Below, in pieces: positions 41,725-64,000 of a stretch of DNA of 64,000 nucleotides. The DNA lies in contig OZ024741.1 of NCBI GenBank assembly GCA_964016885.1, positions 92,814,001 through 92,878,000 of the forward strand, given 5' to 3'. The stretch is from Eledone cirrhosa. Its lineage: Eukaryota. The stretch's first letter is position 1. Each line of letters starts with the position of its first letter. The position numbers were made by a program, and so were the translations under genes. Under the pieces are notes generated by a model. That model did no database searches. It saw nothing but the letters and a program-made list of their open reading frames with translations, and was not told the origin of the DNA.

Positions 41725-41779
41725 CAACGTGTTAATGTATTTTGACAGTGCGTTTGATAAGCTCCACTAAACAATCGTT

Positions 41780-41890
41780 ATAAAGTTCAGTAGTTGAATT
41801 GTGTGTGTAAAACTCGCTCAGCAAGTTTATTAAAACAGTAAAACAATCAAACAGGCAACTTCTGCCTCTAGAAGTAAATATAAGCAACAA
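41780..41890 (+). promoter_or_regulatory. Putative promoter of aquaporin first exon A
   Basis: GTTCAGTAGTTG..AAAACTCGCT (41809) followed by TATA-like TATTAAAA. The motif order is shared with 45860-45945. Confidence 0.4.
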
Positions 41891-42051
41891 ATCTGTTGAC
41901 GTTGTTAATTAGTAGAAAAGAAAAAAAAGCACAAATTGAATAACAGTAAATAACCTCTTACATTTTTAAAGTGAACAACATTTCTAGAGAAAAAATCTGC
42001 TCTGATGTTTAATCGATTTCTCATTGAAAACTTTCAAATGCCTGTTATTTA

Positions 42052-42723
42052 ATGGCTGATCTTAAAACAACCGAAGCAGATTTCAAATCTTCCACTGAGA
42101 ATCTTAAAAAAGAAAACGAATTTTTGACCAGGAAAGCAGCCTATTACAATAAAGATTATTGCGTTGACAATTGTAAAAAATTCCTGATGGAAGAAATTGA
42201 GGACATAAAACAGCCAATATTTTGGCGAGCAGTGATGGCAGAATTTCTTGGAGTCACTTTTCTTGTTTGTTTCGCAATCGCTACTGGAATGAGTAACGAG
42301 AACTTTCAACCAAATGGATTGATCTTCCCCTGCATTGAAGCAGGTATATTTATCGCAATTATCGTCGGCTCTTTGGGCCACATAAGTGGTGGTCATGTTA
42401 ACCCTGCTGTCAGTTTAGGTTTCGCAATAGTCGGTGAAATCAGTTGGATCCGTTTTGTATTCTACACTCTCGCTCAAATGCTCGGCTCCATTGTTGGAGC
42501 TGCAATCATTCGAACTGTTGCACCGTCCTCAATGTATCGAAATTTCGGAGTTATTGCTCCTGGACCTGACGTTACTGATGTACACGCTATGATGATGGAA
42601 CTGTTGATCACATTCTTACTCCTCTTTGGGATTTTGGCAGCCGTTGATAAAGGTCGTAAAGATTCCATCGGGTCTGTTCCACTACACATTGGCCTTATAG
42701 TATCTGTCAATATGTTTGCTTCT
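42052..42723 (+). CDS. AQP: Aquaporin (MIP family, AQP1/AQP4-like lineage), first coding exon A (N-term to TM5)
   Basis: FWRAVMAEFLG, GHISGGHVNPAVS, YTLAQMLGSIVGA, MELLITFLL and AVDKGR..IGL. The open frame of 224 codons ends at donor GTAAGT (42724). Confidence 0.92.
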
Positions 42724-43019
42724 GTAAGTATTGTTCTCTTCTATATTTATCTCAGGATTTAATTGTCAATCTAGTGTTTATCCATCTGTATTTATCAAAG
42801 CTATTTATCAAAGAGACACAACCCCGGTTAACCTGGATATATACTTATACACAGGCATGGACACATTCTTTTATTCTTCGTTGCATAATCAGCAGGCCTT
42901 GAGTTTATTTATATATGATCGAAAGTGTGTGTGTGTATGTGTGAGTGTGTATATATATATATATATATATACAAGGTGTCCCCAAAACATGTATTCACAA
43001 AAAATCTTTAAAAAGTGCA

Positions 43020-43188
43020 TGAGCGTCAGACACCATGCTTTGCACTATAGAGCTATGTCCCTTTACATTCTGAGTTCAAATCCCGTCGAGGTTAAATTTG
43101 CCTTTCATCCTTACGGGGTCGATAAAATAAAGTACTAGTAATACACTGGGGTAATTGCTGGCCTTGTGCCAAAAGTAGAAACAATTAT
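43020..43188 (+). mobile_element. SINE family A (5'-truncated)
   Basis: B box and conserved body present. Confidence 0.8.
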
Positions 43189-43519
43189 TTAAATTATGTA
43201 AACATTTTTGGATGTTTACATACAATTGAATTATGTCTATAGATCATTTTATTTTGGGGAATGGCTATGCATTCTAATAAATATTTCCTGCACAAGTAAT
43301 CAAAGAATGTATACATTTTGGGGGACACCCTCTATATACATATATATATGTGTGTGTGTGTGTGTGTGGCAAGGTTTTTTATATGAAATCGTGTGTTGAA
43401 ACAAATATTGTTATATTTGGGGAGGGTCATATTGTTATAATATTGCCAGAAATATATAATAAAACACATTCACTGTGTTTTATTATGTATTACTGGCAAT
43501 ATTATAACAATATATACCA

Positions 43520-44560
43520 CCTCTGTATGGACTCCGCAAAGACCATCAAACAGCTAACGACCCTATAACAGGACCACCAACAAGACCTGTATGCGGAGCC
43601 AAATTAACTAGCAACTAAAGGATCTGATACTTCCTTTCTATGATTGTACGCCCCATAATTAAGATGTCTCCAGATGCATGTGACAGCACAGAGGACCTCC
43701 TCAGCAGAATCAATGACTGCAACTACACCGAAGATTTGACAAACTGCATAATAGGCAGTATGGATGTAGTGTCCCTGTACCCATCCATTGACATTGATTT
43801 TGCTGAGGGAAAATGTGTGGAAATAATCAGTGAGAATGAGGTTGAGTTCCGTGATGCTGACACAGACAAACTGGGCCTCCTACTTACATATGACGGAGAA
43901 TATGTAAATAATTATGACCTGAGCAGTTTGTCCAAGTAGACCAATAAGAGGTAGACCCCCCACCACCACCACCATAACTTCGATGGCTAAAAAGACTCCC
44001 ATAGGAAGATGTAATGGATGGACCAAAGCCATACGGACATCCGAGATAATGATCAGGTGAGAAAAATGAACCCATATGCGGAAGGGGCTAGTGTTAAAAC
44101 TGCCCAAAAGGGTCACATGTTCAAATTTAATCAGAAAATTTACACTCAAGATGAAGGAGCAGCCACTGACATCAGCATAGCTGGCGAGATTGCCAACCTA
44201 TTCATGGTATGGTAGGAAAACAGACTCAGAGAACGCCTAGCAGAGAACTCTAAAGCCCTCGTCATGTATTCTCGTTACGTAGATGATATCAATATAGTAA
44301 TAAAAACACTCCCACAAGAGAGTTCGGGTTTATTGGTACTCCCACAAGAGAGTACCAATAAACCCGAATTAGAAACACCATGGAGAGCATCCAGCAGATA
44401 GCTAATTCCATACACCAGAGCATCACAGTAACTATTGACTACCCTTCCAAACACCCTAAAAATAGACTACCAGTATTAGACACTGAATTCTGGTTACACA
44501 CTATAAACGAGAAAACCCAAATTCTCCACTCACATTACGCTAAAGCCATTGCCTCCAAAT
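43520..44560 (+). mobile_element. Penelope-like reverse transcriptase fragment, decayed
   Basis: IIGSMDVVSLYPSID, FKFNQKIYTQDEG..IANLFMVW, YSRYVDDINI and TIDYPSKHPKNRLPVLD. Confidence 0.8.
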
Positions 44561-44562
44561 AG

Positions 44563-44825
44563 ACAGCCTGGACGAGCTTCGTGTCTCCATTGCCCTCAGA
44601 GTGTGAGCTGACGTCTATACAGGTCTGAAATGTCGGTCTATCGTGCTGCCTGAGTGTCGGTCGCTTCGCGCGTCACACTGAGCTAAACCTCATCATCAAG
44701 AGAGCTTTGGCACGGGCAAACATCGCCTTAATTTTGGAACCGTTTGGGTTGTCCAGAATTGATGGGAAAAGACCTGATGGCCTAACGGTGTGTCCCTGGA
44801 TAAGAGGCAGGTGTCTTATCTGATA
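44563..44825 (+). mobile_element. CRE-clade LINE fragment (RLE domain)
   Basis: [44 protein letters not shown]. Confidence 0.75.
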
Positions 44826-44850
44826 GATGTTTTTTTTCTCCGAAGATAAA

Positions 44851-45344
44851 TGTATAGGTAGATACCTATAGGTAACTGCTGTCCTACAACTGACAATCTA
44901 AAGTGTAGATAAGCGGGAAGAAGCTGTAGCGGTTGTCTCTCTTGTTTTGATTGGGATCTAGACGGGAAGTGGAACCCTTTCTGCAACTTCCGGTCAGAAC
45001 CTTATAAAACTAACAACTTTAAGCTCTCATTCTCTCATTGCCTTTTCGGCACCAGGTCAAGAGCCTCTCATTCGGCTCTGCCATTCATTTGGCCTTCCTG
45101 GCGCCTGGCTGGCCTTAGCCAGGCGTCCTCTGCCAGCCGCGTTTGCCTGGCAATCAAAACGGTAACTACTAACTTTGCTTCATTCTAACAATATCCTCAT
45201 CTTTGACATGTCAACTATACTATCTACCATTGTTAATTAAATATTATACACCCAAACCATGTATTCCTTGTTACATTCATACAACCCAGTATCTTCGCTA
45301 TAAAGCTATTAAAACCATTCCGTTTCTACCAATGTGAAAGTACA
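44851..45344 (+). mobile_element. Probable solo LTR
   Basis: TGTA...TACA termini, internal TATAAAA (~45003), ATTAAA (~45308) and near-TSD ATAAA/ATATA. Confidence 0.5.
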
Positions 45345-45377
45345 ATATATATTTATTTACAGTCATAATATTAATAA

Positions 45378-45730
45378 TGGTTTCTTATATAGGCACAAGG
45401 CCAGCCATTTGGGAGGGGAGGCAAGTCGATTAAATCGACCCCAGTGCATTACTGGTACTTTATTTTATCGACCCTGTAAGCATGAAATGCAAAGTTAACC
45501 TCGGCGGGATTTGAACTCAGATCATAAAGGGCCGTAATTCTATGCTGCAAAGCATGGTGTCAGACCCTCTACCGATACTGCCAATCCACCGCCCTAATAA
45601 TAACAACGATAATGGTTTCTTATATAGGCACAAGGCCAATAATTTGGGGGGATGGGATGGTTGATAAAATCGACCCCAGTGCGTTACTGGTACTTTAGTT
45701 TATCGACCCCGTGTGGATGAAAAGCGCCGC
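45378..45730 (-). mobile_element. SINE family A, one full copy plus a tandem partial copy
   Basis: Reverse complement of family A. Confidence 0.85.
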
Positions 45731-45859
45731 CCTAATAATAACAACGATAATAAAAAAAGAAAAGGAAACAAAAGAAAAAGTAGGTAAATATAGAGAAAAA
45801 AGAGAAAAAGAAGCGCACAGTGATTGTTATATAACATAACACTCGCGTTAACTAGATCT

Positions 45860-45945
45860 TACGGTTGAGTGGTTGCGAAATGTTGCCTCAAAACTCGCTT
45901 GTCCAGTGCATATAAGTAGTTGAAACGACTCCTGGCAGTCAGATC
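45860..45945 (+). promoter_or_regulatory. Putative promoter of aquaporin first exon B
   Basis: GTTGAGTGGTTG..AAAACTCGCT (45890), TATAAG (45911) and initiator-like CAGTCAGA 25-30 nt downstream. Confidence 0.45.
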
Positions 45946-45986
45946 TGTGCATCATCCTGTCAGTGAGTTTAATTCGTATCGATCAG

Positions 45987-46652
45987 ATGGGTGACGAGAA
46001 TTCCACGACCACCATGACTGATGTCAAGTCTACTCCTGACATCTTGAAAAAGAGGGAAAATTCTATCCATGATATCAGGAAAATTATTTCGTGGATAACT
46101 GTAAAAAAATTCCTGATGGAACAACTTGAGGACATGAAAGACCCATTATTTTGGTTAGCGGTGATAGCCGAATGTTTTGGCACCATGTTTCTTGTTTGTT
46201 TTGCAATCGCTGCTAATATGAGTGATGAAAATGCTCCACCAAATGGAGTGATCTTTCCCTGTATTGAATCAGGTATATTTATTACAACAATCATCGGTAC
46301 TTTAGGCCACATAAGTGGTGGTCATGTTAACCCTGCTGTCAGTTTATGTTTCGCAATAGTAGGTGAAATCAGATGGATCCGTTTTGTATTCTACACTCTC
46401 GCTCAAATGCTTGGCTCCGTTATAGGAGGTGCAATCATTCGGAATGTTGCACCATCCACAATGTACCGAAGTTTCGGGGTTGTTGGTCCAGGACCTGGAG
46501 TTTCTGGTACTGATGCTATGGTGATGGAATTGGTGATCACGGTGTTCCTCATTTTTGGCATTCTGGCAGCCGTTGATAAAGGTCGTGAAGATTCCATCGG
46601 ATCTATCCCACTGCACATTGGGCTTATAGTATCTCTCAATATGTTTGCTGCT
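45987..46652 (+). CDS. AQP: Aquaporin, first coding exon B (N-term to TM5), paralog of exon A
   Basis: ATG at 45987; FWLAVIAECFG, GHISGGHVNPAVS and MELVITVFL. The 222 codons end at donor GTAAGT (46653), the same position and phase as exon A. Confidence 0.92.
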
Positions 46653-46783
46653 GTAAGTATTATTCTGGTCTTAATTTTATCTCATCATTTATATATAGGA
46701 AAAAAGTAAACAGAAATAACGAAGCAAGTGACATAGTACAATGAAGAAATATATTTATATACATATATTTATATACATATATA

Positions 46784-46894
46784 CCCACTGATGAAGCCAC
46801 ATGCGCCAATTATGCATTGTTGCATAATATATGCGGACAGAGGGTGCAGTGCACCCTACTGCTGCATTAAGTGTGACCGAAGCTCGAGTTAGGG
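46784..46894 (+). ncRNA. Decayed hammerhead with branched, extended stem II
   Basis: CCCA-CTGATGA-..CACAT....GTGTG..-GAAG-CTCGAG-TT-AGGG. Internal hairpins ATTATGCA/TGCATAAT and AGGGTGCA/TGCACCCT. Core A15.1 is mutated. Confidence 0.5.
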
Positions 46895-47037
46895 AACGAC
46901 TACAGGTATCCGTTTACGTGTGTTGTATTGAAACGAATAACTATGTGTATACTCTGGGAGTTTATTTAACATTACCTATTGAGTACGCTGAGATACAACC
47001 GGTCCTAGCAGTGAAACCTATGCTAGGTCCGTCAACT

Positions 47038-47125
<88 letters not shown>

Positions 47126-47299
47126 TTCGTTTCTGAATTTGTTTAGCAAGATTCTTTATCTGAAATCGTGTGTTGAAACCGATATTGTTATACTTTGGGA
47201 GGGTCATGTTGCCAATAAGAAACACACGCACCAGTTGCTTTCACTTCAATTTATTATATATTTATAAATTTATAAATTTACAAATCTACAAACTTATAA

Positions 47300-47815
47300 A
47301 TTTCTGGTTGGTTGGTTGGTTCCACAACCAGATAGTTGTTTATATATAGTCATAGTCCTTTCGTCACACACTCTGTGATCTCTTCAGTGACTGGGGATTC
47401 CTTTCTTTGTTTCTGTGCCTTTCCTTTCTTCTGTCCTACGCCATTTTGTTTCTGTGTGTGTGTGTTGTGTGCTCAGTTTGCGCATGCGCCACATCCGGGT
47501 GTCTGTGTGTGTTTGTGTTCATTTATCTATTTGTTTATTTATTTATTTATTTATTGTTGGTTGGTTGTTTGTTCTATGTGTGTGTGTGTTTTCATTTTGT
47601 CCTTAATTGTAAGTTGTGATGTTGCTGTTCCACTCATATTTTCTATTTAATTTTGGTTGTAATTCTTTTATGCTTACTGCCTCTGTAATTTGCCTAAACA
47701 TTGCATCTTTTCTGTGTGTGGATTCTATTTTTATTTCTATGTTCTCTAATCTACCCCTGTGTTCTATCTTAGCATGTTGGTAGAGCACAGATGATTCTTT
47801 ATTATCTATTTTAAT
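47300..47815 (-). mobile_element. Penelope-like 3' end (GIY-YIG C-terminus, 3' UTR, hammerhead)
   Basis: LYQHAKIEH..DAMFRQITEAVSI..LNRKYEW (47603..47788). Confidence 0.75.
47348..47392 (-). ncRNA. Minimal type I hammerhead
   Basis: AGTCA-CTGAAGA-G(A)TCACA(GAGTG)TGTGAC-GAAAG-GA-CTA^TGACT. Confidence 0.75.
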
Positions 47816-48146
47816 TACAGTCGATACTCGACCAAATCATCAGAATACATGATAAGGTGCGCTAGAATTTATACAGTGCGCCAGTATCTTACGAACAGCG
47901 ATTTTTAGACACCAGACTAATGAAACGATTGTTAATACTTTGAATAAACCCTATTGTACAATGTGTAAAACCCAATTGGAAAATGGGTAAAATCCTTGGT
48001 ACAGTTAGGTATATTTTAAAAAAAGGAAAAGAATGACTTCACTTGTAGTTCTAAACAATTTGATTTAATTTTTATAATATTATGAGTTGGTAGATCTAGT
48101 AAATTATTTTTCTAAATATTATATATACTGTATATATATATATAAT

Positions 48147-48260
<114 letters not shown>

Positions 48261-48402
48261 GAGTTTATGTTGGTTGTATACCAACACCTCAGTATGCAGG
48301 CTGGAGCACTCGACGAAGTGCGCAGGTTGGTTTGGTTACTCCGGAGTAGTGTAAAATAAAGTTAAATAAAAGTCAAATGATTAAAATTTAGCTTCGTTTA
48401 TT

Positions 48403-48457
48403 ACTGCTATATATATTTCAGTGACAGCCATCTTTGGCTGTGACCTCTTCAGGCAGT
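48403..48457 (-). ncRNA. Minimal type I hammerhead
   Basis: Reverse complement of 48598-48652. Confidence 0.8.
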
Positions 48458-48597
48458 TTGAATTAGTATGGTATAGAGTCATATGACTCCAGTTCCCCAG
48501 TGAATTAACAACCCAACAAGGAACTGGGCATATCAGAGTATTGACAATATCATACACCTAAACAACATATGTACTTGTCTATACCATACTAATTCAA

Positions 48598-48652
48598 ACT
48601 GCCTGAAGAGGTCACAGCCAAAGATGGCTGTCACTGAAATATATATAGCAGT
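48598..48652 (+). ncRNA. Minimal type I hammerhead
   Basis: ACTGC-CTGAAGA-GGTcACAGCCA(AAGA)TGGCTGTcACT-GAAA-TATAT-ATA^GCAGT, with palindromic stem III. Confidence 0.82.
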
Positions 48653-48721
48653 AATAAACGAAGCTAAATTTTAATCATTTGACTTTTATTTAACTTTATT
48701 TTATATATATATATATATAGT

Positions 48722-48955
48722 GACTCCCATTCTTGCCTTGACTTTACCTCTTCCCATCCAAGCCACACCAAATTCTCCATATTCTACTCCCAATTCCTCC
48801 GTGTTCGTCGGCTCTGTAGCCAGGACCACGATTTCGAAACTCATTTCCTTCGCATGGCGTCCCGCTTTATCCAGTGTGGATATCCCCCCACGCTGATCCA
48901 AGCTGCTCTCACCTACGTCCGTGAAACCGACCGTACCATAGCCCTCTCTCTCCAC
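48722..48955 (+). mobile_element. Penelope-like RT thumb fragment
   Basis: DSHSCLDFTSSHPSHTKFSIFYSQFLRVRRLCS..FIQCGYP. Confidence 0.8.
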
Positions 48956-49379
48956 CTTTCAGCTGAAGAAAGTTAGGCCAATATGAAATTGTAGCGATAT
49001 TGGATTTTTTTTTTTTTTTTGTATATTTTATGAATTCTCTGGAGGTACATGACTGAGTTAAATAATGGCTAACGGTAAATTCCTGAAGTCAATGATCAGA
49101 TTCTAATATGTAGACACATTTCGATATATTACTGATGTAGCTTGAGCGAGATTTTCAACATTTCCTTTTTTTCATAATTTTTTAAACATGTCTTCTTCGT
49201 TTTCTGATTTTTATTCCTGCCGTGCGGCACTTAGCAGCAACCCTGTCAAATACATGTCAGAGATCACCGTCTGATGAGTAAAGTAATAGAATTCCGTTCA
49301 CAAATTCCAGCTGACTGATTCTACACCCGCCAGTCTTGATACAACTTCCAACCCAGCTACACATGTCAATCCTGTCCTG

Positions 49380-49920
49380 TGGTGGTGGCGGGGATGCGTA
49401 TGTTAGTGTTTGTGTTGTGTGTCTTGTGACTTTTGCTTTTTTCGTCCCCTTTCTTTGTCGGCGAAGTCAAAATATTTTTTTTCTCTTTTTTTGTTAGGAC
49501 TGGTTTTCCACTCCTCCACAATCCATGTCCGATTGTGCCGAATTGGGGAGAGGCATGTCCACCTCTTGTTGATGTTGTTGTTGTTGTTGTTGGCGCCGAT
49601 GCTGATGTTGCTGTTGTTTTGGCATTTGTAATTGTTGGTGGAGTTTTTTCTGCTGTTGCTGTGAACGCTGCTGTTTGTGTTGTTCAGTAGGGAATTTGGT
49701 GTTGGAAGGAGACAGGGCCTTGTCTCATTCGTCGTCTATTGTGGGCAGAAAGCATTATGGTGGGTTTTTGCCCCACAGGTATGACATTTTGGCTTTCTAC
49801 CTTCCACGATTATAAAAACGTGGATGCCATCCGTGAGATTTATTATATCGAGGATGACCTCAATGCACTCTTGGTCCATTTGGCAAAGGTCCTGAGCACA
49901 AATCCTTCTTTTAGACCTAG
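49380..49920 (-). mobile_element. Tx1/L1-like ORF1 fragment with CCHC knuckle
   Basis: Minus strand reads IIVEGRKPKCHTCGAKTHHNAFCPQ (CX2CX4HX4C), followed by an AAC-rich low-complexity tract. Confidence 0.6.
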
Positions 49921-49929
49921 CAAATAATA

Positions 49930-50145
49930 ATTTTCTATTTTAAGCACAAAGCCAGCAATTTGAAGGGGAGAGAAAAGTCGATTAAATCAATCCTAGTACT
50001 TACTAGTGCTTTATTTTATTGATCCCATATGGATGAAAGACAAAGCTAACCTCGGCAGGATTTAAACTCAGAACGTAAAGGACTATAACTCTATGCTGCA
50101 AAGCATGATGTCTGACGCTCTGCCGATACTGCCAATCCACTGCCC
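49930..50145 (-). mobile_element. SINE family A
   Basis: Reverse complement of family A. Confidence 0.8.
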
Positions 50146-50863
50146 TTACCTAGCAAATAATAATAATAAGTATAACAACCAACATCCACTACCACAGCAA
50201 TACATAATGAACCACATACTACTACTACCACCACTGCCACCATACCACCTCTCCCACACTTCCCCATACCACTTCACCATCAGCACCACACAACGCTACC
50301 ATCCCCAACACACCATCCCACCATCCCCACCATACCATCCACCATTCACCACAATTACCACCACACCACCCCACCCTCACACCAACATCACCATTAAACA
50401 AACACATCAACAGAGAATATACCACTGCCAGAACTTAGGGTTAATGTCGATGCTCTTTATTGTCTGTTTCAATTAATTTTTGTAGTATTGCTTGGGGTGG
50501 CTACATGATCTGTTGCCTGTGCTAAGTGCACTGTAGAGGATTTAACTTGGCATCTAGTGCTATTCATGGAATGGCTGTGACTTGTTCATCTAAGGTGATG
50601 TTTGATGCTGTTGGCTTTGCCCTGTTCAATGATTGCAAAGTTGCTGACATACACGTCCCATTTGATGCTCATAATTGATCGAAGTTTTTGTTGATAAAAT
50701 CACTCCAGTTTTTGGATATCCTGGCAGTACAAAGTTCATGTTTCAGAACCATAGAGTAAGGTGGAAATAACCAAGGCTCAATACACCACAAGCTTGGTTT
50801 GTAATTAGGTTCTTGTTTCTGAAAACACGATGGAAGAGTTTTCAAAAAGTAACATAGTCAGCT

Positions 50864-50896
<33 letters not shown>

Positions 50897-50899
<3 letters not shown>

Positions 50900-53720
50900 A
50901 AGGTTAAACAATGTTCAATGAATAAATCAAAGAATGAGTTTTACAATAGATTGGAAGCACTCCACAGTAATGGTTTTCCGGAGTTATTAATATTAATTCA
51001 AAATATTAACAAAAATAGACATTCGTGTGATCAAGTATATTTTATTATACATATTTCAGAGGTACTGAGCTATCTTCAACAGTACGTCCTCATCAGATAA
51101 AATAAGATGATGCATGATATACCCTGACTTAGTAGATGGTTAAAATTCAGTCATGGTAGTGAATAATATGACAAAACTCAATATGTATATACCTTAAGAT
51201 TGAGACATGAAAAAATTACATATAATACAGAGGGTGCGTGTGAGAAAGCTTAAAAAAACATAATAGCAATTTACATAACTGTTAGAGATTCAAATAATTT
51301 AAATTATTGAAGAAAGAAGAAAGACATAGAGAAACAGATGAGGGAAAATATAGTTACTAGAAGTATAGAAAGCAAAAGAGAATTGATCAAGGATAGAGAG
51401 ACAAGGAGGAATAATTTTTATAGTATAAAGCATAGGGAGGGAGATTTGTATTGTCGTGGATAAAAAGCATGTGATTAGATGATGCAAATATATATATATA
51501 TATAAAAACATAAATATACATTTGGGCATAGCTTTGTGAAAGAGAATACTCGAATCTTTGAATTATCTAGAAATAATCAATCAATCTAAATATTAAATAT
51601 ATCTGGGTGTAATTATAAGGGTTTAATTTCGAGTCCTTAATTAATTAGAAATATACTAACAATTAACTATATACATTATATATATCCAAACGTATCCGGA
51701 TGACCGTTAAATTTCGAATCATTTATGTTAGTTCAGAATAATGAATTAAACTAAAGGTATAGTATTTCAGTCTATAAAAATTTATAAGTATTTATATTAA
51801 AGTATACCATCATATTTATAAAATCATATTTAAAGTATTTGCAAACATGAGAAAGAAGAGACTTAATATTTTCATCCTCTCGAAGGTAATCCATATTAAA
51901 TTATATTAAAAGAATTTTATATTAAAATAACAATCATTATATAATTTAGAAAGTAATTACAGTTATAACTTTAAAAATTTAAAATTAACAATTAGAATGC
52001 CTTAAAGTATCTAAAGGCCTTATAATTATACTTAAAAATGGTATTATTAAACTAGATATATGCATTTGTCTAAATTTATACAAAGAGTATATTGTCTAAA
52101 GTTCAAGACGATATTAGTCAGTTATACATAACATAATATAATATAATAAATAAGTTACTGTTAATATTGTTAAAATTAAGGTTTTAGATCAATAATTATA
52201 TTAGGATCATGTAATACATATATACTATATACAACTATATACAAATCAAACTTCATGAATCATAAGGATAAGAACCAGATTCAAAATAAATAAGTAAATG
52301 GTTTGCGATCTTATAAGTGCCAAATATCTAAGCTGTATAATTTAAAAATACAAGAAAACTTTTTTATTTTAAGGATCTATATTGTAGTATAATATCATAT
52401 TTAAAGTGTTTGCAAACATGAGAAAGAGAAAACTTAAGATTTTCATCGACCCGAAGGTAACCCGAATTTACTTATATTAAAAAATAATAATCGTTATATA
52501 ATTTAGAAAACATTTAACAATTATAACACTAGAATTATAACACTATAATGTCCTAAAGAACTTATAAAAGTAGCTAGAAGCATGTTATTAAACTAGATAT
52601 ACACATTTGTCTAAATATATACAGAGTATTCTGTTCGGAACTCAAGACGATATTAGTGATCAATATACATATAATAAATAATAAATACAATCATTGTTAG
52701 TAAAGTTATAATTGAAGTTTTACATCAAGTTAAGTGGGAAAAGTTTGTCGACTAGGATCGTGTGCGACGCATATACCATAAATATATATAAACATATAAA
52801 TCAAACATCCTGAATCTTAAAACCAACATACTCCAAATGAATAAATACATAAATATATAAATACATAAATACATGAATGGTTTACGGTTCCTTACAACTG
52901 TTAACGATATAAGCTATATATTTAAAAAAATACAAGAATCCCGATCAAATTAATCAATCAAATGATATGCATATTCATCAAGAGATCATGTTAACAATCT
53001 ATATGTTTATATATCTATATAGAACCCTTAATCTAAGATTAATTATATTATAAATGAATAAAAGTTATTATACGGAACAGGAAAGACAACCGTATGAACG
53101 CGCATGCGCAGAAACGGTCACTTCACCCAGGCAATACAAAACTGCGTGCGAGAGGTGTAAGGGAGATAACTGCGAAAGTCCGAAAAGTTCTAGTTGATAA
53201 GACAATTAGGATGTTGTTGTTATTCAATCCGGAGCTTTTTAGTTATGTAAGAGGTGTTTCCAGACATGTGGACAACGTGTGAAGAATTCATTTCTTGAGT
53301 TTAGCCAATCGCTATTGCGTAATCTCTTTAGAATATTTATCCGTTCGTCAATACATAGTCCACATGACGGATTGCCCCTTGCGTATGGCTTGGACTTGGT
53401 GATGGCTTTCCATTAAATGGAGTAGTCTATACTTGAGTCCTTGAGGGACCATACGTGGCTCGCGAGTTTCGTGGATGATCGTTTGTTCGGGTACCTAAAG
53501 GTCGACTGGTGGTTCAGGAAGCGTTCCTTAAATCGGCTCTCCGCCATACCCACGTCGGATTTGACCTCCTGTGGTTGATTTGGTCGGTTGGAAGTGACCA
53601 CAGCTTCATAAACTACAGCGGGTGTGTTGCATTGCTGTTGGAGGGGGACAAGCTTCAGGCTTTCGGCAAGAGCACCCTGGTGGGGTGTTGGTGATGTGGG
53701 TCTTCATATTCTTAGCGTAG
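50897..53720 (-). mobile_element. Penelope-like element 3' part: GIY-YIG fragment plus ~2.3 kb AT-rich 3' region ending in a hammerhead
   Basis: 53413..53601 reads VGMAESRFKERFLNHQSTF..KLASHVWSLK, continuing WKAI..PY..CGLC. Hammerhead at 51040-51102 on the same strand; ends at (AT)n. Confidence 0.7.
51040..51102 (-). ncRNA. Minimal type I hammerhead
   Basis: TTTTAT-CTGATGA-GGAcGTACTG..CAGTACcTCT-GAAA-TATGT-ATA^ATAAAA. Confidence 0.75.
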
Positions 53721-54419
53721 GTAACTGTACTCGCTCCTTTCGAGGCGGACCTTCTTGACTTAGCCGCTAATAAGTCCCATGATAGGCTTCATACAATGGG
53801 ATCCAGTTTAAGGTAACGTTTTAGAGCTAGATGGCGTTCCTGGTGCCAACCCTTTTAGTTACCTATTACAGCACTAGGTATGTTATACTTTATTCGCAAC
53901 CAGATACACACAGCATAAAGAGATGTAAGTAAATACCACAAGGAATTTTGTCTGATATCCTAACGATTCTACCAATCAGCTGTACCAATTAATTGTTGCC
54001 AGGTAATTATCAAATGGACACTACAAATATTTGGCAATGGTTCAATAGCTTTTCCACCTTGTTTGGAAACAAATATTATAATTTTACTTGTGGACTCAGC
54101 CATAACATTTATGTAGTCATTGGTTTACTAATTGCCAGACACTCGTATGGTTGGCTCTGAACCGCAGCTTAATCACGTCTTGTTTGAACATGATGTTCAC
54201 ACCAAACAACGGCACACACTTGTTTAAAAAATGTATTTAATTAACCCCTTCACTACCATAGTTCTAATGAAAGATGCTGCCTTTGATATTGACGGATTTA
54301 CGATAGTAATATAACTAACCTTCTCATTATTAAGAACACTAGCATGTGTAGTGTGCATATTGGTATTATAAATATATATGCATATAGATATATGTAAATT
54401 GAAAAGTAAATTGACAATA

Positions 54420-55050
54420 TCTTCTTCTTCACCCATTTATTTCTGAGAGGGTCGTGGGCGCAGAGTTCTTCTCAAACACTCCTTCCAGCGAGTATGTCAG
54501 TAGCAAACATCTCTAACTGATCCAGCTGGATTCCAAAGCGTGACCAGCCAAGCTCATGGATGTGATTCAACTATCTTGCTCAGGGTCTACCTCTGGGTCT
54601 CTTGCCGGTTGGTTTTGCCTGTAAAATGTGCCCAGCGATTCTTTACTGAGGCACTCTAACCACATGCTCATAATATCGGAGTTGTGATCTCTCTATCCAG
54701 AGAAGTAGCGGCTCTACCAGGAGTGACTCTCTGGTCTCTGAGTTACGCACTTCATCGAGTAACGTTACTCCAAAGACTCTTCGGAGGAATCCCATTTCTG
54801 CCGCTTTTATTTACAATTTGGTCATTACTCAAGATTCACGATCCTCGGTAAGAGTTGGCAGGAATACCAGGAAGACAGCGAGTTTGGCTTTTACATCTAC
54901 CCCCCTATCTGATTGCTGAGGATGGCGTTTTACTGCATCAGCTTTTGCAATTCTTGCACTTAATTCAGCCTCCTGCATTCCATCACTCATGAACACGGCT
55001 CCAAGATACTTGAACTTCTCTAACTGCTTCAGTAGAACTCCATTCACATG
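54420..55050 (-). mobile_element. RTE-like LINE 3' fragment with (GAA)n tail
   Basis: LKQLEKFKYLGAVF..; same family as 35575-36158. Confidence 0.75.
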
Positions 55051-55202
55051 TATATAAATTTGAGGGACTTCTGTCCACTCGTCCATCACGCAATGTGTAT
55101 GTGTGTTTGTGTGAATGTATGTGTGTGTAAAAGGAAGGAAAGGGATACACACATAAATGTCTCTAACTTAAAAACAGTGACACACACACACTGTCCTATT
55201 AC

Positions 55203-55802
55203 CACTCAAGAGCTTTGGCCCGGGCAAATATCCCCTCAATTTTGGAACCGTCTGGGTTGTCCTGAATTAATGGGAAAAGACTTGACGGTCTTACTCTGTG
55301 CTCCTGGTCAAGAGGCAGGTGCTTTACCTGGGACGTCACCGTTAGTGACTCTTTTGCTTCTTCCCACATTCTGGTTGCAGTGGTAAGGGTGAGAGCTACA
55401 GCATCCGCAGCTGAACGGAACAAAATCCTAAAATACCGTGTTCTGTCAGCTAACTACATTATCCAGCCTGTGGCGTTCGAGACGTTTGAGGGAGTCGGGC
55501 TACTGACAGCGAGGTTCTCATCTTCACTGGCAGCTCGCCAAACAGAGGTAACTGGTGATACTCGTGAGAGCACTTGGTTGTTCCAGTACCTCAGCCTCGC
55601 CATCACCCCAGGTAACGCTGCGAGCGTGCTGGCTTGCCTCAAAAATTATTAGAGAGGTTTCCCAGTGCTCCTCATTATATTGCTATCTTTTGCTCTGGTA
55701 GCGGCTCGTTTTACCACTCTTTCGCCTGCATATTGTTCTGTGGTCTAAGATGTATGTATTACCTTCTTGTGTATTATTTCTCTTTCCTTTGTATATATTA
55801 TA
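55203..55802 (+). mobile_element. CRE-clade LINE 3' fragment; its tail resumes at about 58879-58908
   Basis: AAERNKILKY..PVAFETF..WLFQYLSLAI.PGNAASV. Matches 44695-44820. Confidence 0.75.
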
Positions 55803-56962
<1,160 letters not shown>

Positions 56963-57787
56963 CTAGCAGCTGAGCCCGGTTGCACCCGGGACCACTTTTT
57001 ATTAAGTTAATAATTTGAAAAATATTATTGAAAGTTTATTATAAAGAAGCAGTTTCAGGAAAAAAAAATAGAAATATGCACTTGGGGCTGGACGGCGTAC
57101 AATGAGAAGTGGAGCGACGTGAAAAGCGTTGTTTATTAACAGCGAAATATCAATGTCGATGATATGCAATTTGAAAAATACTACTTACTGTTAGTGGTGG
57201 TTAACATGTATTTGAATTAAAATAAAAACACGCGTCCCTTCTTCGCAATTTAAGGGTTTTATTTCTTTTGATGGAAAACAGTGACCGTACTGCAGAATCG
57301 ATTTCATAAAACGGTACTGTATGATCGTTAAATGTAGAAGGATGATAGTTTATTAACAGCGAAATAGCAATGTCGATGATATGCAAGTTTAAAAATGCAT
57401 ATTATGAAGGTTTGTATGATAGTTTACACTTTTTCCTGAAACTGCTTCTTTATAATAAACTTTCAATAATATTTTTCAAATTATTGGTACTGTATGTTAA
57501 CAGCGAAAGAACGTTGATGAGTTTTAAAATGTGTATGAAATTGTAAAGAACTCAGCCAAGTATTAGAACAGGGGGAAATAACTCACCGAACGCGATAGTA
57601 AATAGACCGTTTGGGGGCCCTAGGGACCACATTTTTCAAGTTAGAGATTTGAAACCTCGTCTATTTGCTTCCTTGGCACTTTTTACATAAGTGTGTAAAT
57701 TTTCATGTCCATCCGACCACGTCTACTACCATTTAACTGTGCACATCTGAATTTCAACCACCACCCATTTCACAAATATATATTAGA
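56963..57787 (-). mobile_element. Non-autonomous Helitron 2 of tandem array
   Basis: Hairpin CCCGG/CCGGG next to CTAG, 5' TCTAATATAT, and an internal 55-bp inverted repeat (57009-57063/57431-57485). Confidence 0.8.
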
Positions 57788-58878
57788 CTAGGAGCGGTAC
57801 CCGGCGTTGCTCGGATATTAAATAGCAGTTGTGTATACCATTTATGTCAATACTTCAGTGCTGCTTCGAAAACTATACTTTTACAAAATCATCGGCTTTT
57901 TCCAAAAGGGGGTTCCTGCCCCCAGGAGTCCCCTACTCAATATGTGCCAATTCTGAGAGTTCACATTCATCTGTAGGACAAACGTAGCCCATGTGTCAAG
58001 TTTTGTGAAAATCGGTTGCGAACTCCAGAAGTTATGACGTTTTGTTGCATTGCACTGCAGTGCTTCAGTCGACTCCAAGGAAGTGGTTAAAGTGGTTAAA
58101 GGGGTTATCTGCCGGGGGGCCCTATAATCAATATCTGGAAAAATGACAGTGCCCATGACCATCCGGAGTACATAAGTAACCTATGTCTTAGGTTTGGTGA
58201 AAATACTGTAGAAATGCATAAGATTTATACATACGCGCGTGCGTTCGTGTGTGTGTGTGTCTGTGTGTGTGTTTGTTTGTGTGTGTGTGTGTATGTATTT
58301 GTGTGTGCGTATGTATGTGTACGACCGTCGGGGCATACGTATGTACTGGTCTAAATCTTCACTATTTACTTTTACTATTTTAATAACCTCTGACATTTTC
58401 GTTTTCAATTTTATTTACATCATTCTTAAACTCCGGGGCTGGAAATCATTCTGTTATTTAAAATAGAATATTAGTCTAACGACTCCATTTATACCATAAA
58501 CTTGGTCTTGTCTTTGCATGAAATTGTTCTACATGCTTCACATAACGACGTATTATCCTCGCTTTTTTCCCGTTCATCGCCAGGGAACGTCTTCACGAAC
58601 AAAATATCGTCTTCCTGTTTTCGTTCGGTTGCAACGTTTCTCGAAATATTTACTTCTGCGTTCACAGATTACTCTCAGTTCAATTTGAATGGGAAATTCC
58701 TGTTTCATCGATTTTCTCCGTAACCATAGAGGCTTGTAGCTTGAAAGTCGACCCAACGCCTCCTCGGGTCATTCTGCACAACTGTGTAAATTTTCGCTGC
58801 ATTCCACCAAACCGTTTCGACGTTTTCCGACTACACCTGCATATACAACGTCCGACCACTTCCAATTTATATAGTAGA
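57788..58878 (-). mobile_element. Non-autonomous Helitron 3 of tandem array
   Basis: The 3' ~740 bp is shared with Helitron 1, but the 5' part (TCTACTATAT) differs. Confidence 0.8.
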
Positions 58879-59847
58879 TTTGTTTATATATGAATGACAA
58901 AAAAAAAAGTACAAAACTATACATGAATTGTTTCTACTAAACCTTCAATTTAAGACACAACCTACATATTTGATAGGACTCCAGCTCACACCTTCTTCTT
59001 CTTCTTCTTTTGCTCCCCCTGAAACATTGGGCTACGAGCCATCCCCACACAACGCCATGTTCTGAATCTGCTTTTCAACTCCACCGTGATGCACGGTGCA
59101 TTCATGGTGTATCTAACCATTTTTTTAGGTCTTACTACGGCTGATTTCTTCCAGAGAGAAAGAAAGAGATGGAAAAAGGCAGAGAAGATTCATCCCCGGA
59201 GGAATAAGATAAATGTTTACACTGCACATTTCATTTTTTCAAAGCTAAAGCTGCCGATCCAAAATCAGTAATTCAACTCCCTGAAAACTTTCAAATATAT
59301 GCTGTTCTAGCATGAATATTATGCTAAGGGACAGCTGTCCACAAAGTACGATTTACTTGCATATCCCCGCTCATATAAACACATAAATACATGCATACAT
59401 ACATTACAGTTGATATTTTTTTTAATTAAAGCGTTTTCATATTATATATATATATATATATATATATGTATTGAAGTTTCCGTTGAAAATAGAAAAAGTC
59501 ATAGGAGTGAAGAGTGCTCTATGTAAGTACCAGAGCCTTCATATTCTTATAATGTATCTAATACCCTGTTTTTTCTGTATACCTGTCAACCAGACATTCA
59601 CATCATGTCATGTCTATGTCTATCGTTACATATACACAGATATACTTGCCCTCATAAATATATTTACGCACACATTTTCACTATACACACACATTTGTAC
59701 ATACATGCTTGTGTATATCTGTGAGTGTATATACATACATATACACACACCTAACTATATTTTTTAAAAGATCTTTTTATATATTTTATATGTCTATTTT
59801 TCTTGCATTTCTTGAGGAGACTTTCCAAATATTTATCTATGTTTTAT

Positions 59848-59925
59848 ATTGCCTCGTCCGACGAACGAATGAAGACGTTTCTTTCGTATTCGTCTTATTC
59901 GGGAAACCTCTGATAATGAGGTAAT
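59848..59925 (+). ncRNA. Decayed hammerhead motif
   Basis: 10-bp stem I ATTGCCTCGT/ATGAGGTAAT, core CCGACGA (U4 mutated), stem II CGAAT-AAGACG/CGTCTT-ATTCG, then GAAA...ATA. Confidence 0.5.
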
Positions 59926-60097
59926 TATTTTGTATTGTTTCTATACATTATATATATATATATATATGCAAAAGTTCTATTTAAATTGTTGGGATACAAC
60001 AAATAAATATTTTTATAACTGATATAAAGCACTCGACAAGTATTTGGAGTAGATATACGATATTAACAAATGGAAACTATATTTATAAAACCATATT

Positions 60098-60160
60098 TAT
60101 TTCATTATACATATTTCAAGGATACCAAGTTAAATTATGGTATGCCTTCATCAAACAAAA
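60098..60160 (-). ncRNA. Decayed hammerhead, relative of 51040-51102
   Basis: TTGATGA-AGGcATACCA..TGGTATCCTT-GAAA-TATGT-ATA. Flanks resemble 50950-51040 and an AT-rich tract follows. Confidence 0.5.
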
Positions 60161-61739
60161 TACAATATATACCAGTTTTATAAATAAACATTGACGTACC
60201 CTTTCAAAATGCGACCGTTACTTTTGGAAGACATCAGGATAGTGGTTTGTTTACTTTAGTAAATCGTAGTGTTAAGGATAAGTAAAAAGACGGAGAGAGA
60301 GAGAAACGTGGAGAAAAGAAAGGGAGAGATAAATAAAGAACAAGAGGAAAGAAAAAAGAAAACAGAGGAAAACAACAGAGAGATGTCAAACCACCAGACA
60401 GAGAGAAAAAATTCAAGAGAGAGAAATATAGAGATAGAGAGAGGGGGAGAGAACGAAAACCTTAAGTCATGTCATATTAAGTTTAGTTAACAATTGAGAT
60501 GAAATGAATAAATAAAATTAGAAATATTAATATTCATGAATGGAATATACGTATATAATATGAGAAATTAATCATTGTTTAATTATGATTAGATATTTAG
60601 TTTAAAAATTGAGATCAATATATTAAAAATTGGAATTTAAACATCACAAAATATATATATTGCTAGAGAAATTACCTATCGTATAGCACGTACATATAGG
60701 CAAAGATACATAAATATATATATACACACACACACTCAGAAAATACACACTATATCTACTCCCGCATATAATATATACATACAAAGCATAAGTGATTTTT
60801 TTTATTACTGCTATACATTCCTTGTGTTATTAAATAAAAAATTTTAGTATATATATATAAATATATAGGATTAACTTTCATGCATTTATGGCTGTTAAAA
60901 TCATGCATATCTGCAATCAAAAGTGCATGGGTAAGCATGTACATGTACACACACAATTCCTAGCTATACATATATAAATATGTGTGTGCATCTTCACCCA
61001 ATTGGTAGACACGCGTCACTCATGCATATATACAGACAGACATATAATCATAAAAAGCATATAACACATGTATATGTATGTTAATACACATATATAGATA
61101 CATAGTCGTATAGAGATAAGTACATCAATATATTACATAGTACAATTGAGTATATAAAATACAAAAGGATTAAATTTTGGAAATATAATTGTATCAATAT
61201 AACTTAAAAGACAAACGAATTCTACAAATATCAAAATATTAAAATATTATAGAATATCTTAAGTTAAAATAATATGTTTAATAGATTTAGTATAGAAATT
61301 TATCTTACGTATATTTTAATCAAGATATTGAAAGGATAAACTTTTGAAAATTATGAGAAGCTATCAGAATAAAAACAAACCTAATAAAAAAATAAATAAA
61401 ATATTATATCAATATAACTTAAAAAACAAGGATTCTACAGATATCAAAATATTAAAATATTTTAAAATATTATAGAATATTTTAAGCTAAAATAATATGT
61501 TTAATATATTTAGTATAGAAATTTATCTTAAGTATATTTTATTTAAGATATTGAAAGGATAGACATTTCTAGAGTAGTTTATTATATCTATATTTATATT
61601 TAGGAAGAAAATTTATACTTGAGTATTTAACCAAAGAAAATGAAAAAGGTGAAGGAATATAATGATTTATCGACAGGTTTCATATATTAACCAAATTACT
61701 TAATTAATTATACTACATTTTAAATTTATATTTATATTT

Positions 61740-62185
61740 ATGTCTGGTGGCTGTGAGGGAGCCTCTCATGCAATCAGGCAGTTCTTCAGCAGCTGCCCAT
61801 CGGTACTGGCATCCAGGGACTCCAGGCACCTCATTGTCAAGCTTGACATGAGGAATGCCTTTAATTCTTTACACCGGGATCATCTGCTCGAGGCCTGCCT
61901 CAGCCGAGCCCCCTCTGCCTACCCGCTGGCCTACCTATCATATGGAGCCCCGAGCATGCTCCTAGCTGCTGATACGGTTATACCCTCGGCTACTGGGGAC
62001 CCCTCCTGTTCGCCCTTGGTATTGACCACATCGCCCAGAGTATCACAGCCCCTCTCAACATTTGGTATCTGGATGATGCTACATTGGGCGGGCGCGTACG
62101 GACGGTCTGCCAAAACCTTCAATCGGTCAACTCGGCCAAGTCGGAGGTGGTGAACGTCAGCCTCGATGCTGCGAGCTTTGCGGCC
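61740..62185 (+). mobile_element. CRE-clade LINE RT fragment
   Basis: GGCEGASHAIR..KLDMRNAFNSLHRD..; LNIWYLDDATLGG in another frame. Confidence 0.8.
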
Positions 62186-62315
62186 TCGTCTATTTGGTTC
62201 CTTGGCACTTTTTACATAGGTGTGTAAATTTTCATGTCAGTCCGACCACGTCTACTACCATTTAACCGTACACATTTGAATTTCAACCACCGCCCATTTC
62301 ACTAATATATATTAG
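62185..62315 (-). mobile_element. Helitron 5' fragment
   Basis: Near copy of 57655-57787. Confidence 0.7.
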
Positions 62316-63326
62316 ATTTGTTAGTGTTTTCGTTCTGTAACCATTATATTAAATGAGTTTTTAAAAAAAAGTTAATAAATAAATAAAACGTTATACTTGT
62401 TTTACCCTCCCATTTCCACTTCACCGAACGCTATCATGACTGTATGTGTGTGTTTGTGTAAATGTATATGTGTGAATGTATGTATATTTGTGTGAAAGTA
62501 TGTGTGAATGTATGTATATTTGTGTGAAAGTATATGTGAATGTATGCGTGTTTGTGTAAATGTATTTGTGTGAAAGTAGGTGTATTTGTGTGGATGTATG
62601 TGTATTTATGTGAATGTATGTCCGTGTATTTTTATAAGTTTGTGTTTGCGCGATTATAGTTATATACTCATACATATAGATGTATGTATGTATGTACACA
62701 CTCATACGCGACAGCGTGTAGAAAATCATAATCTCTCTATCTCTCTTTCTATATATATGGTAGCTGTGGTGGTGGTGGCAACGATATACCGGAAGTACAA
62801 CTTTGAAAAGAAGTCAATTTTAAATTATTTATTTTTACGAAATTATTTGTTTACGAGATTTAGTACATAAATTATGTAATATTCATTCATTATTTATTCA
62901 AAGTAATCCAACTTATTTTACTAACTGGATTAAAAGAAATAAACCGTATGCAGTCCTGCAGACCTTAGTTTATTATAGTTTAGATAACAAAGGTCCTGGC
63001 ATAAAATTATGATGGAAGGTTTTATATAAATATAATCATTTAAAAATAAACAGCTTTATATCATAGTGGTACATGATAGATGATGGTAATGGTGATAATA
63101 ATGATTATGTTTAAACTTAGATCAATGATAAGAAGTGTTCCTGCTGTTAACAGAATACCTTGTGGTTTTTTTGGTTTGTTTTCGGATGTAGTCTATCTAG
63201 GACTACATTATCCAATGTGTCCTTGCTTCTTAAGATGGTATACTATGATTTTAGAACAGCAGTTTTCCAGCCTTTATGAAAACCTTTTGAAAGCAGGGCC
63301 CCATGGTAAAATTCATTTAACCTTTC

Positions 63327-64000
63327 TGATAGTAAACCACATAGGGCCATCCATGGTTCTATGATAGCAAACCACCTAAGGCCATCCCTGGTTATATGAT
63401 AGTAAACCACCTAAGACCATATCTGGTTCTATGATAGTAAACCACCTAATGCCATCCTTAGTTCTATGATACTAAACCAATTAAGGCCATCTCTGGTTCT
63501 ATGATACTAAACCACCTAAGGCCATCTTTGGTTCTATGATAGTAAACCACCTAAGGCCATCTCTGGTTCTATGATAGTAAACCACCTAAGGCCATCTCTG
63601 GTTCTATGATACTAAACCACCTAAGGCCATCTCTGGTTCTATGATAGTAAACCACCGAAAGCCATCTCTGGTTCTATGATAGTAAACCACCTAAGGCCAT
63701 CTCTGGTTCTATGATAGTAAACCAGCTAAGGCCATCTCTGGTTCTATGATAGTAAACCACCTAAGGCCATCTCTGGTTCTATGATAGTAAACCACCTAAG
63801 GCCATCTCTGGTTCTATGATAGTAAACCACCGAAAGCCATCTCTGGTTCTATGATAGTAAACCACCTAAAGCCATCCCTGGTTCTATGATACTAAACAAC
63901 CTAAAGCCATCCATGGTTCTATGATACTAAACCACCTAATGCCATCTCTCGTTCTATGATAGTAAACCACCTAAGGCCATCTCTCGTTCTATGATAGTAA
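63327..64000. repeat. 35-bp minisatellite, about 19 copies, runs off the window
   Basis: Unit GTTCTATGATAGTAAACCACCTAAGGCCATCTCTG. Confidence 0.95.

What the first reader, a model, noticed from the sequence alone, without database searches (positions are those of the whole stretch)
41780..46660. Two tandem aquaporin first exons with no downstream exons between them: candidate variable-exon/constant-exon channel gene
Seen: two intact, diverged ~670-nt exons, each encoding the N-terminus through TM5 with the first NPA. Each has a homologous upstream motif set and ends at an identical phase-0 GTAAGT donor. The 3.2 kb between them is mostly recognisable SINE, PLE, CRE and LTR sequence, and I find no exon with the second NPA(R) there or in the 17 kb downstream. 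Known: this donor matches the intron that precedes the loop-E/NPAR exon in vertebrate AQP1. Inference: both exons splice to shared downstream exons, an alternative-promoter design like clustered protocadherins or UGT1A. That would give channels differing across five of six helices from one locus. Both frames staying open despite divergence argues against exon A being a dead duplicate.
Basis: partly seen in the sequence, partly recalled or inferred. Interest (0 to 1): 0.82.

Follow-up and report, generated by a model that had tools for sequence, protein, structure and literature searches.

The report
Octopus aquaporin with swappable first exons
An octopus water-channel gene has two different copies of the exon that encodes five of its six membrane helices but only one copy of the remaining exons, so it likely makes two different channels from one gene, a design we found described for other gene families but not for a water channel.

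Summary

Exons A (42052-42723) and B (45987-46652) each encode TM1-TM5 with the first NPA and end at a phase-0 GTAAGT donor. In 414 kb around them there is one 81-nt loop-E exon, 34.6 kb beyond B, and one TM6 exon. Genome-wide searches found no second set.

RefSeq models in Octopus sinensis and O. bimaculoides show the same design: isoforms X1 and X2 with 73% identical first exons and identical tails.

A and B are under purifying selection (dN/dS 0.43). B, not A, is the faster-changing copy. B is the orthologue of Octopus X1. No X2-type exon was found here, so the variable exons appear to turn over.

No RNA run was listed for this species, so splicing and separate promoters are inferred. The channel has a Maqp-like filter without Phe or His.

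The variable-first-exon design is known from UGT1A, protocadherins and sDscam. Our searches found no paper describing it for an aquaporin core.

The parts
42052..42723 (+). Variable first coding exon A: N-terminal tail, TM1-TM5, first NPA (42400-42408); filter sites Ala (42340) and Met (42712)
42724..42762 (+). Phase-0 GTAAGT donor of A; about 33 nt of intron start resemble those behind B; read-through stop at 42760-42762
   Evidence: (p=0.03 against shuffles)
45987..46652 (+). Variable first coding exon B, orthologue of Octopus isoform X1: TM1-TM5, first NPA (46329-46337); filter sites Ser (46269) and Met (46641)
46040..46109 (+). Compensated frameshift in the N-terminal tail of B: about 23 codons are read in a new frame; the old frame still aligns with A and now holds a stop
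   Evidence: letters confirmed without gaps by DNA-run contigs
46653..46709 (+). Phase-0 GTAAGT donor of B and read-through stop
41745..41914 (+). Upstream region of A, weakly collinear with the upstream region of B; candidate promoter or 5' UTR
   Evidence: p=0.098; 0 of 1000 shuffles, post hoc
45817..45978 (+). Upstream region of B; candidate promoter or 5' UTR; an AG directly precedes the ATG at 45987
42909..45815 (.). Repeat-rich interval, including a decayed reverse-transcriptase frame at about 43630-44540; no aquaporin exon
46653..64000 (+). First half of the 34,634-nt intron that runs out of the window to the two shared exons: the single 81-nt loop-E exon with NPC-R (G000:C2:92895287-92895367, 17.3 kb past the window end) and the single last coding exon with TM6 and tail (G000:C2:92905313-92905513)

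Best explanation
This is one octopod aquaporin gene with two tandem, diverged first coding exons (each TM1-TM5 with the first NPA) and a single loop-E exon and a single TM6 exon 35-45 kb downstream; each first exon is likely spliced separately to the shared exons, likely from its own promoter, which would give two full-length channels of 317 and 315 residues. The layout arose by tandem duplication of the large first exon alone (inferred). The phase-0 intron after TM5 lets either copy join exon 2 in frame (shown from the sequence). The variable exon carries two of the four filter residues and both lack the usual Phe and His (shown by alignment), so both products are predicted to be Maqp-like wide-filter channels. 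They likely differ mainly in where or when they are expressed and in their N-terminal tails, and only modestly in the pore.
For: Shown here: 2 first exons against 1 exon 2 and 1 exon 3 in 414 kb, with no assembly gap between A and exon 3 (the only N run is 139 kb further on). Genome-wide searches with the MIP family (32 of 32 candidates scored), an X2 first exon (13 of 13) and the tail (11 of 11) found no further close copy. Long first introns are normal here: about 149 kb at the C1 paralogue and 95 kb at the C4 paralogue.

Selection: dN/dS between A and B is 0.43 (bootstrap 0.26-0.69; 1 of 1000 resamples at or above 1). With an equal synonymous clock assumed, A is about 0.23 and B about 0.59, both below neutral (Poisson p 6e-12 and 1e-3). 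Frames stayed open in only 9-12% of substitution-only neutral simulations at dS/2.

Relatives: XP_029641698/XP_029641699 (O. sinensis) and XP_052826461/XP_052826462 (O. bimaculoides) are named isoform X1 and X2. They are identical over their last 95 and 96 residues, yet their first-exon cores are 73% identical, and the tails differ between the species (86 of 92). An older O. bimaculoides annotation had the two first exons as consecutive truncated models and the tail as a separate 86-residue model.
Against: No RNA junction was seen in this species. RefSeq may also merge whole-gene tandem duplicates into 'isoforms': the Crassostrea virginica X1-X3 set (95-99% identical) looks like such a case.

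A and B are not the one-to-one orthologues of X1 and X2, so use of both exons in Octopus does not prove use of both here. B has 31 derived residues against 13 in A (p=0.01) and differs at 8 of 93 columns invariant in 9 related rows, some radically (Phe to Cys, Ser to Arg). O. vulgaris and Argonauta yielded only an X1-type protein.
Confidence: 0.7

Rival explanations
1. One copy is a stranded or decaying duplicate, and the gene makes one channel. B is the more likely candidate by sequence, A by position.
For: B has about 2.4 times as many derived residues as A, changes conserved residues and carries two frameshifts in its tail. Lone first-exon pseudogenes are described in Pacific oyster and Chilean mussel (PMC8925068 passages; PMC12771848 section 16). 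Recent loss of function would leave little trace.
Against: Both branches fall below the neutral expectation. The two frameshifts cancel and keep the frame from ATG 45987. Both donors are intact. The mussel paralogues are dispersed among chromosomes; the oyster pseudogene lies 100 kb downstream of its gene. Two Octopus species are annotated with both first exons in use.
Confidence: 0.14
2. Both exons are used, but as mutually exclusive exons behind one shared non-coding 5' exon and a single promoter.
For: An AG lies directly before the ATG of B. Related abalone genes have several RefSeq transcripts for one protein, which suggests variable 5' UTR exons (inference).
Against: The AG before B has little pyrimidine tract compared with the acceptors of exons 2 and 3. 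The regions upstream of A and B look weakly homologous over about 170 nt, as a duplicated promoter would.
Confidence: 0.12
3. A is spliced to B in series, giving an 11-helix fusion of about 539 residues.
For: The donor of A is phase 0 and the AG before the ATG of B would be in frame.
Against: No fused form appeared among the 24 hits at E<=1e-60 in a search admitting 164-578 residues (8000 candidates scored). RefSeq models in both Octopus species are alternative, not serial. An odd number of helices would invert the second repeat (inference).
Confidence: 0.02
4. The pair is an assembly artefact (two haplotypes in tandem, or a collapsed second downstream set).
For: Exons 2 and 3 were not covered by the read check, so their depth is unknown. 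The three runs may be the sample that was assembled.
Against: dS of 0.33 is far beyond allelic divergence. Contigs of three DNA runs hold both copies with 0-3 differences and at similar depth. The same 2:1 layout is implied in two other species.
Confidence: 0.02

Closest known systems
RefSeq aquaporin isoforms X1/X2 of Octopus sinensis (XP_029641698.1, XP_029641699.1) and O. bimaculoides (XP_052826461.1, XP_052826462.1)
   Same: Orthologous gene; two homologous first exons ending at the same position and one shared tail. The layout is therefore already in automated annotation.
   Different: Here neither exon is X2-type. B groups with X1 (98/95), A branches outside that group, and no X2-like exon was found in this assembly. 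No paper in the library names these accessions.
Variable-first-exon clusters: UGT1A, UGT2A, GCNT2, clustered protocadherins (PMC1885805, passages seen)
   Same: Tandem homologous first exons, common constant exons, birth-and-death turnover of the variable exons. UGT2A also has just two.
   Different: Those vary mainly soluble or extracellular domains. Here the variable exon holds five of six helices of one channel fold, and the constant exons complete the pore. Separate promoters are described there and only inferred here.
Chelicerate sDscam 5' cassettes (PMC4835542, abstract and opening seen)
   Same: An invertebrate case of tandem 5' variable units used through alternative promoters.
   Different: Large arrays of Ig-domain cassettes for cell recognition, not a two-copy channel exon.
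Salmon louse glp1 and glp3 proximal/distal first exons (PMC4539701 section 7 and passages); barnacle AQP1/AQP2 C-terminal variants (PMC5513457 passages)
   Same: Aquaporin isoforms from alternative terminal exons; in the louse one glp1 variant is retained inside the cell.
   Different: Described as N- or C-terminal variants. The text read does not describe duplicated exons carrying most helices; the figure and supplements that give exon content were not seen.
Malacoaquaporins (Maqp), oyster Aqp4L1/L3, mussel Aqpc1/c3 (PMC8925068 and PMC12771848 passages)
   Same: Classical-type aquaporin with a long first exon, an 81-nt second-NPA exon, and Phe and His missing from the filter. Gastropod and bivalve proteins are the next hits after cephalopods.
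   Different: Filter here is Ser or Ala / Met / Gly / Arg with NPC as second box. In bivalves whole genes are duplicated or lone first exons are called pseudogenes.

Membership tests
MIP/aquaporin family | Pfam PF00230 above cut-off | tested here: met
   132 and 124 bits against 25; exon 2 matches at 33.5 bits
MIP/aquaporin family | Two NPA-type boxes and six helices | tested here: met
   NPA in each first exon, NPC-R in exon 2, TM6 in exon 3; the O. bimaculoides orthologue aligns to AQP4 structures without large gaps. The AlphaFold model was too poor to use.
Molluscan classical aquaporins | Long first exon followed by an 81-nt exon with the second NPA | tested here: met
   Exon 2 is exactly 81 nt and 27 codons; hallmark stated in PMC8925068 and PMC12771848
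Malacoaquaporins (Maqp) | Phe and His of the ar/R filter both replaced | tested here: met
   Sites aligned to AQP4 F77 and H201 are Ser or Ala, and Met; AQP4 filter positions are recalled
Malacoaquaporins (Maqp) | Groups with the Helix pomatia Maqp in a tree | not tested
   No Helix sequence was fetched; only Lottia and Haliotis relatives and an own paralogue were used as outgroup
Malacoaquaporins (Maqp) | [quoted passage not shown] | not testable with these tools
   Reported for relatives in PMC8925068 and PMC12771848
Variable-first-exon/constant-exon genes | Tandem homologous first exons ending at equivalent donors | tested here: met
Variable-first-exon/constant-exon genes | One set of downstream constant exons | tested here: met
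   1 exon 2 and 1 exon 3 in 414 kb; no second close copy in the genome searches
Variable-first-exon/constant-exon genes | Each variable exon is spliced separately to the constant exons | tested here: inconclusive
   The three runs laid behave as DNA; supported only by RefSeq models of two relatives
Variable-first-exon/constant-exon genes | Each variable exon has its own promoter | not testable with these tools
   Only weak upstream similarity; needs CAGE or 5' RACE

The most novel reading that the evidence does not exclude
The octopod Maqp-like aquaporin locus is a variable-exon cassette in birth-and-death turnover. At least three distinct TM1-TM5 exons (X2, A, and B/X1) have arisen and been swapped on one constant loop-E/TM6 module in different octopus lineages, giving isoforms that differ in permeability or trafficking and could mix within one tetramer.
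Probability: 0.3. Interest if true: 0.72.

Novelty: new variant of a known kind. Interest (0 to 1): 0.55.

Why it matters
Aquaporins usually diversify by whole-gene duplication or by changing their tails. Here most of the channel fold appears to be exchanged on a fixed loop-E/TM6 module. That gives a natural test of how much of permeability and trafficking is set by TM1-TM5 when the second NPA box and the filter Arg are held constant.

Surveys that keep one isoform per gene would miss the second channel; one large aquaporin phylogeny did keep only the longest isoform (10.1101/2022.07.25.501387, passages). Lone first exons called pseudogenes in other molluscs deserve a check for splicing to a downstream neighbour.

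The limits: only two copies, a known architecture, and a layout already present in RefSeq models.

Tried and rejected
RNA evidence: no RNA holder listed. The three listed runs (one sample, one study) cover introns continuously, so they behave as DNA.

AlphaFold2 on a 7-sequence alignment gave mean pLDDT 41.6 and was not used.

Gene conversion between A and B: the stretch around the first NPA (codons 66-99) is nearly identical, but synonymous-site clustering was not significant (p 0.07-0.40). Not claimed.

A as the orthologue of X2: not rejected by the AU test (p=0.066), but A shares 0 of 14 derived X2 residues. A+B as one clade was rejected (p=0.022), as were B+X2 (0.002) and Octopus X1+X2 (0.009). 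These groups were named after a first tree had been seen, and support for the deeper forks is modest (87/88).

No protein above 75% identity to A or 68% to B was found (468 and 365 candidates), so no transcript-derived protein of this species turned up.

Literature: ten searches. None listed a paper on this gene or on duplicated first exons in an aquaporin; 'aquaporin + mutually exclusive + exon duplication' and the six accession numbers each gave 0. The library lacks most subscription journals, and no supplements were read; the gene tables of the oyster, mussel and terrestrialization papers may bear on this.

Earlier findings of this scan: three look-ups, nothing shown. The repeat finder output was swamped by microsatellites.
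Full report
Observation. The window lies at G000:C2:92814001-92878000. The best named relatives are octopod proteins, so the organism is taken to be an octopod (inference). Exon A runs from ATG 42052 to 42723 (224 codons) and exon B from ATG 45987 to 46652 (222 codons). Each is followed by GTAAGT in phase 0. Both match Pfam MIP positions 3-177 of 222, which by alignment of the O. bimaculoides orthologue to AQP4 structures is TM1 to the end of TM5. The 181-codon core aligns without gaps at 83.8% DNA and 75% protein identity. Similarity extends about 33 nt past the donor (p=0.03) and weakly upstream (p=0.098; 0 of 1000 shuffles in a post hoc test). The interval is mostly high-copy repeat and holds a decayed reverse-transcriptase frame.

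The missing exons. I took 150 kb upstream and 200 kb downstream. Profile searches over these 414 kb gave two first exons, one loop-E exon (52.6 bits; next 5.5) and one TM6 exon (47.4 bits; next 2.4). A sensitive DNA search found no decayed copy. Exon 2 is 81 nt at C2:92895287-92895367, with a CAG acceptor and a GTAAGT donor, and encodes NPC-R. Exon 3 is at 92905313-92905513. The introns would be 38,563 nt from A, 34,634 nt from B and 9,945 nt between exons 2 and 3. No assembly gap lies between A and exon 3. Genome-wide searches found no further close first exon or tail; they score only the best candidates, so these are lower bounds. Paralogues on C1 and C4 each showed one first exon, with exon 2 about 149 and 95 kb away. 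The 81-nt exon after a long first exon is the stated hallmark of molluscan classical aquaporins (PMC8925068, PMC12771848; passages). That human AQP1 has the same 27-codon exon is recalled, not tested.

Not an artefact. Contigs of three DNA runs from one sample hold both copies with 0-3 differences, at similar depth apart from one thinly covered bin inside B. They may be the assembled sample. A dS of 0.33 rules out alleles.

Relatives. O. sinensis XP_029641698.1 and XP_029641699.1, and O. bimaculoides XP_052826461.1 and XP_052826462.1, are named isoform X1 and X2. Within each species they are identical over the last 95 or 96 residues, starting three residues before the exon boundary, while their first-exon cores are 73% identical. 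The tails differ between the species (86 of 92 identical). An older O. bimaculoides annotation held the two first exons as consecutive models with aberrant ends, one of them reading on into the intron, and the tail as a separate 86-residue model. Against generality: O. vulgaris and Argonauta gave only an X1-type protein, and three unnamed, more distant clusters (probably squids or cuttlefish, inferred) show a single N-terminal type. The oyster X1-X3 set is a warning that near-identical tandem genes may be merged as isoforms, but 73% protein identity is too low for mis-mapped reads (inference).

Selection. Pairwise dN/dS is 0.43 (0.26-0.69). Of 46 differing residues, 13 are derived in A, 31 in B and 2 are unclear (p=0.01). 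Assuming equal synonymous rates, omega is about 0.23 for A and 0.59 for B, both below neutral; part of B's branch is shared with Octopus X1 (9 of 31 changes), so this does not isolate recent history. B differs at 8 and A at 3 of 93 otherwise invariant columns. B also has a compensated frameshift in its cytoplasmic tail (46040-46109): the old frame still aligns with A and now has a stop, while the frame from ATG 45987 stays open. B is thus relaxed or changing function; A is the conservative copy.

History. In a 14-row protein tree B groups with Octopus X1 (98/95). A and Argonauta fall just outside that group (87/88), and X2 is further out. A+B is rejected as a clade (p=0.022); A+X2 is not (p=0.066), but A has none of 14 derived X2 residues. 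The best tree implies at least two duplications of the first exon and loss of different copies in different lineages. One duplication followed by conversion or fast X2 change remains possible; a conversion tract was not significant.

How it likely works. Shown: two in-frame donors, one acceptor in the same phase, one tail. Inferred: transcription starts before A or before B, and the chosen exon is spliced to exon 2, giving channels of 317 or 315 residues. If the intron were retained, the products would be five-helix fragments of 236 or 240 residues lacking the second NPA box, which could not form a pore (established aquaporin structure). The filter sites aligned to AQP4 F77, H201, A210 and R216 (positions recalled, alignment) are Ala/Met/Gly/Arg in A, Ser/Met/Gly/Arg in B and X1, and Ser/Leu/Gly/Arg in X2. 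[quoted passage not shown] The main gain is probably separate regulation and separate N-terminal tails, with small pore differences.

What is known. The architecture is that of UGT1A, UGT2A, GCNT2 and clustered protocadherins (PMC1885805, passages) and of chelicerate sDscam (PMC4835542, abstract and opening). Aquaporin terminal splice variants are known in copepods and barnacles (PMC4539701 section 7 and passages; PMC5513457 passages). Also seen as passages only: PMC6796509, PMC7339444 and 10.1101/2022.07.25.501387; none described this gene in the passages seen. Ten literature searches found no description of this locus or of a duplicated TM1-TM5 exon in any aquaporin (listed under Tried and rejected). 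The layout is, however, implicit in RefSeq.

Verdict. Real, shared in layout by at least three octopods if the RefSeq models are right, and likely functional. It is a new variant of a known gene design. RNA proof in this species is missing. Interest 0.55.

Noticed in passing
window 42038-42052: A four-codon upstream ORF whose TAA stop overlaps the ATG of exon A; it could tune translation of A.
   Followed up: no
window 42376-42477 versus the matching stretch of B: Near-identical DNA around the first NPA while the flanks differ; possible conversion tract, not significant (p about 0.07-0.08).
   Followed up: yes
P0049-P0053, P0032 (Crassostrea virginica): RefSeq isoforms X1-X3 mix two slightly different first exons with two different C-termini; possibly tandem genes merged into one model, possibly real shuffling.
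   Followed up: partly
G000:C2:92447655-92461295 (L009, L017): Another MIP gene, aquaglyceroporin-like by its loop-E sequence, about 400 kb upstream on the same strand.
   Followed up: no
G000:C4:244784356-244911727 (L002, L019, L063): Closest paralogue (about 41% to A), one first exon; its second NPA box is followed by Leu in place of the filter Arg.
   Followed up: no
window 11330-12382 and 16741-17793: A 1,053-nt inverted repeat, 90% complementary, 4.4 kb apart, partly microsatellite.
   Followed up: no
about G000:C2:92899300-92901950, minus strand (intron 2; in L023): A LINE-like element with a 547-residue open stretch sits in the intron between exons 2 and 3.
   Followed up: no
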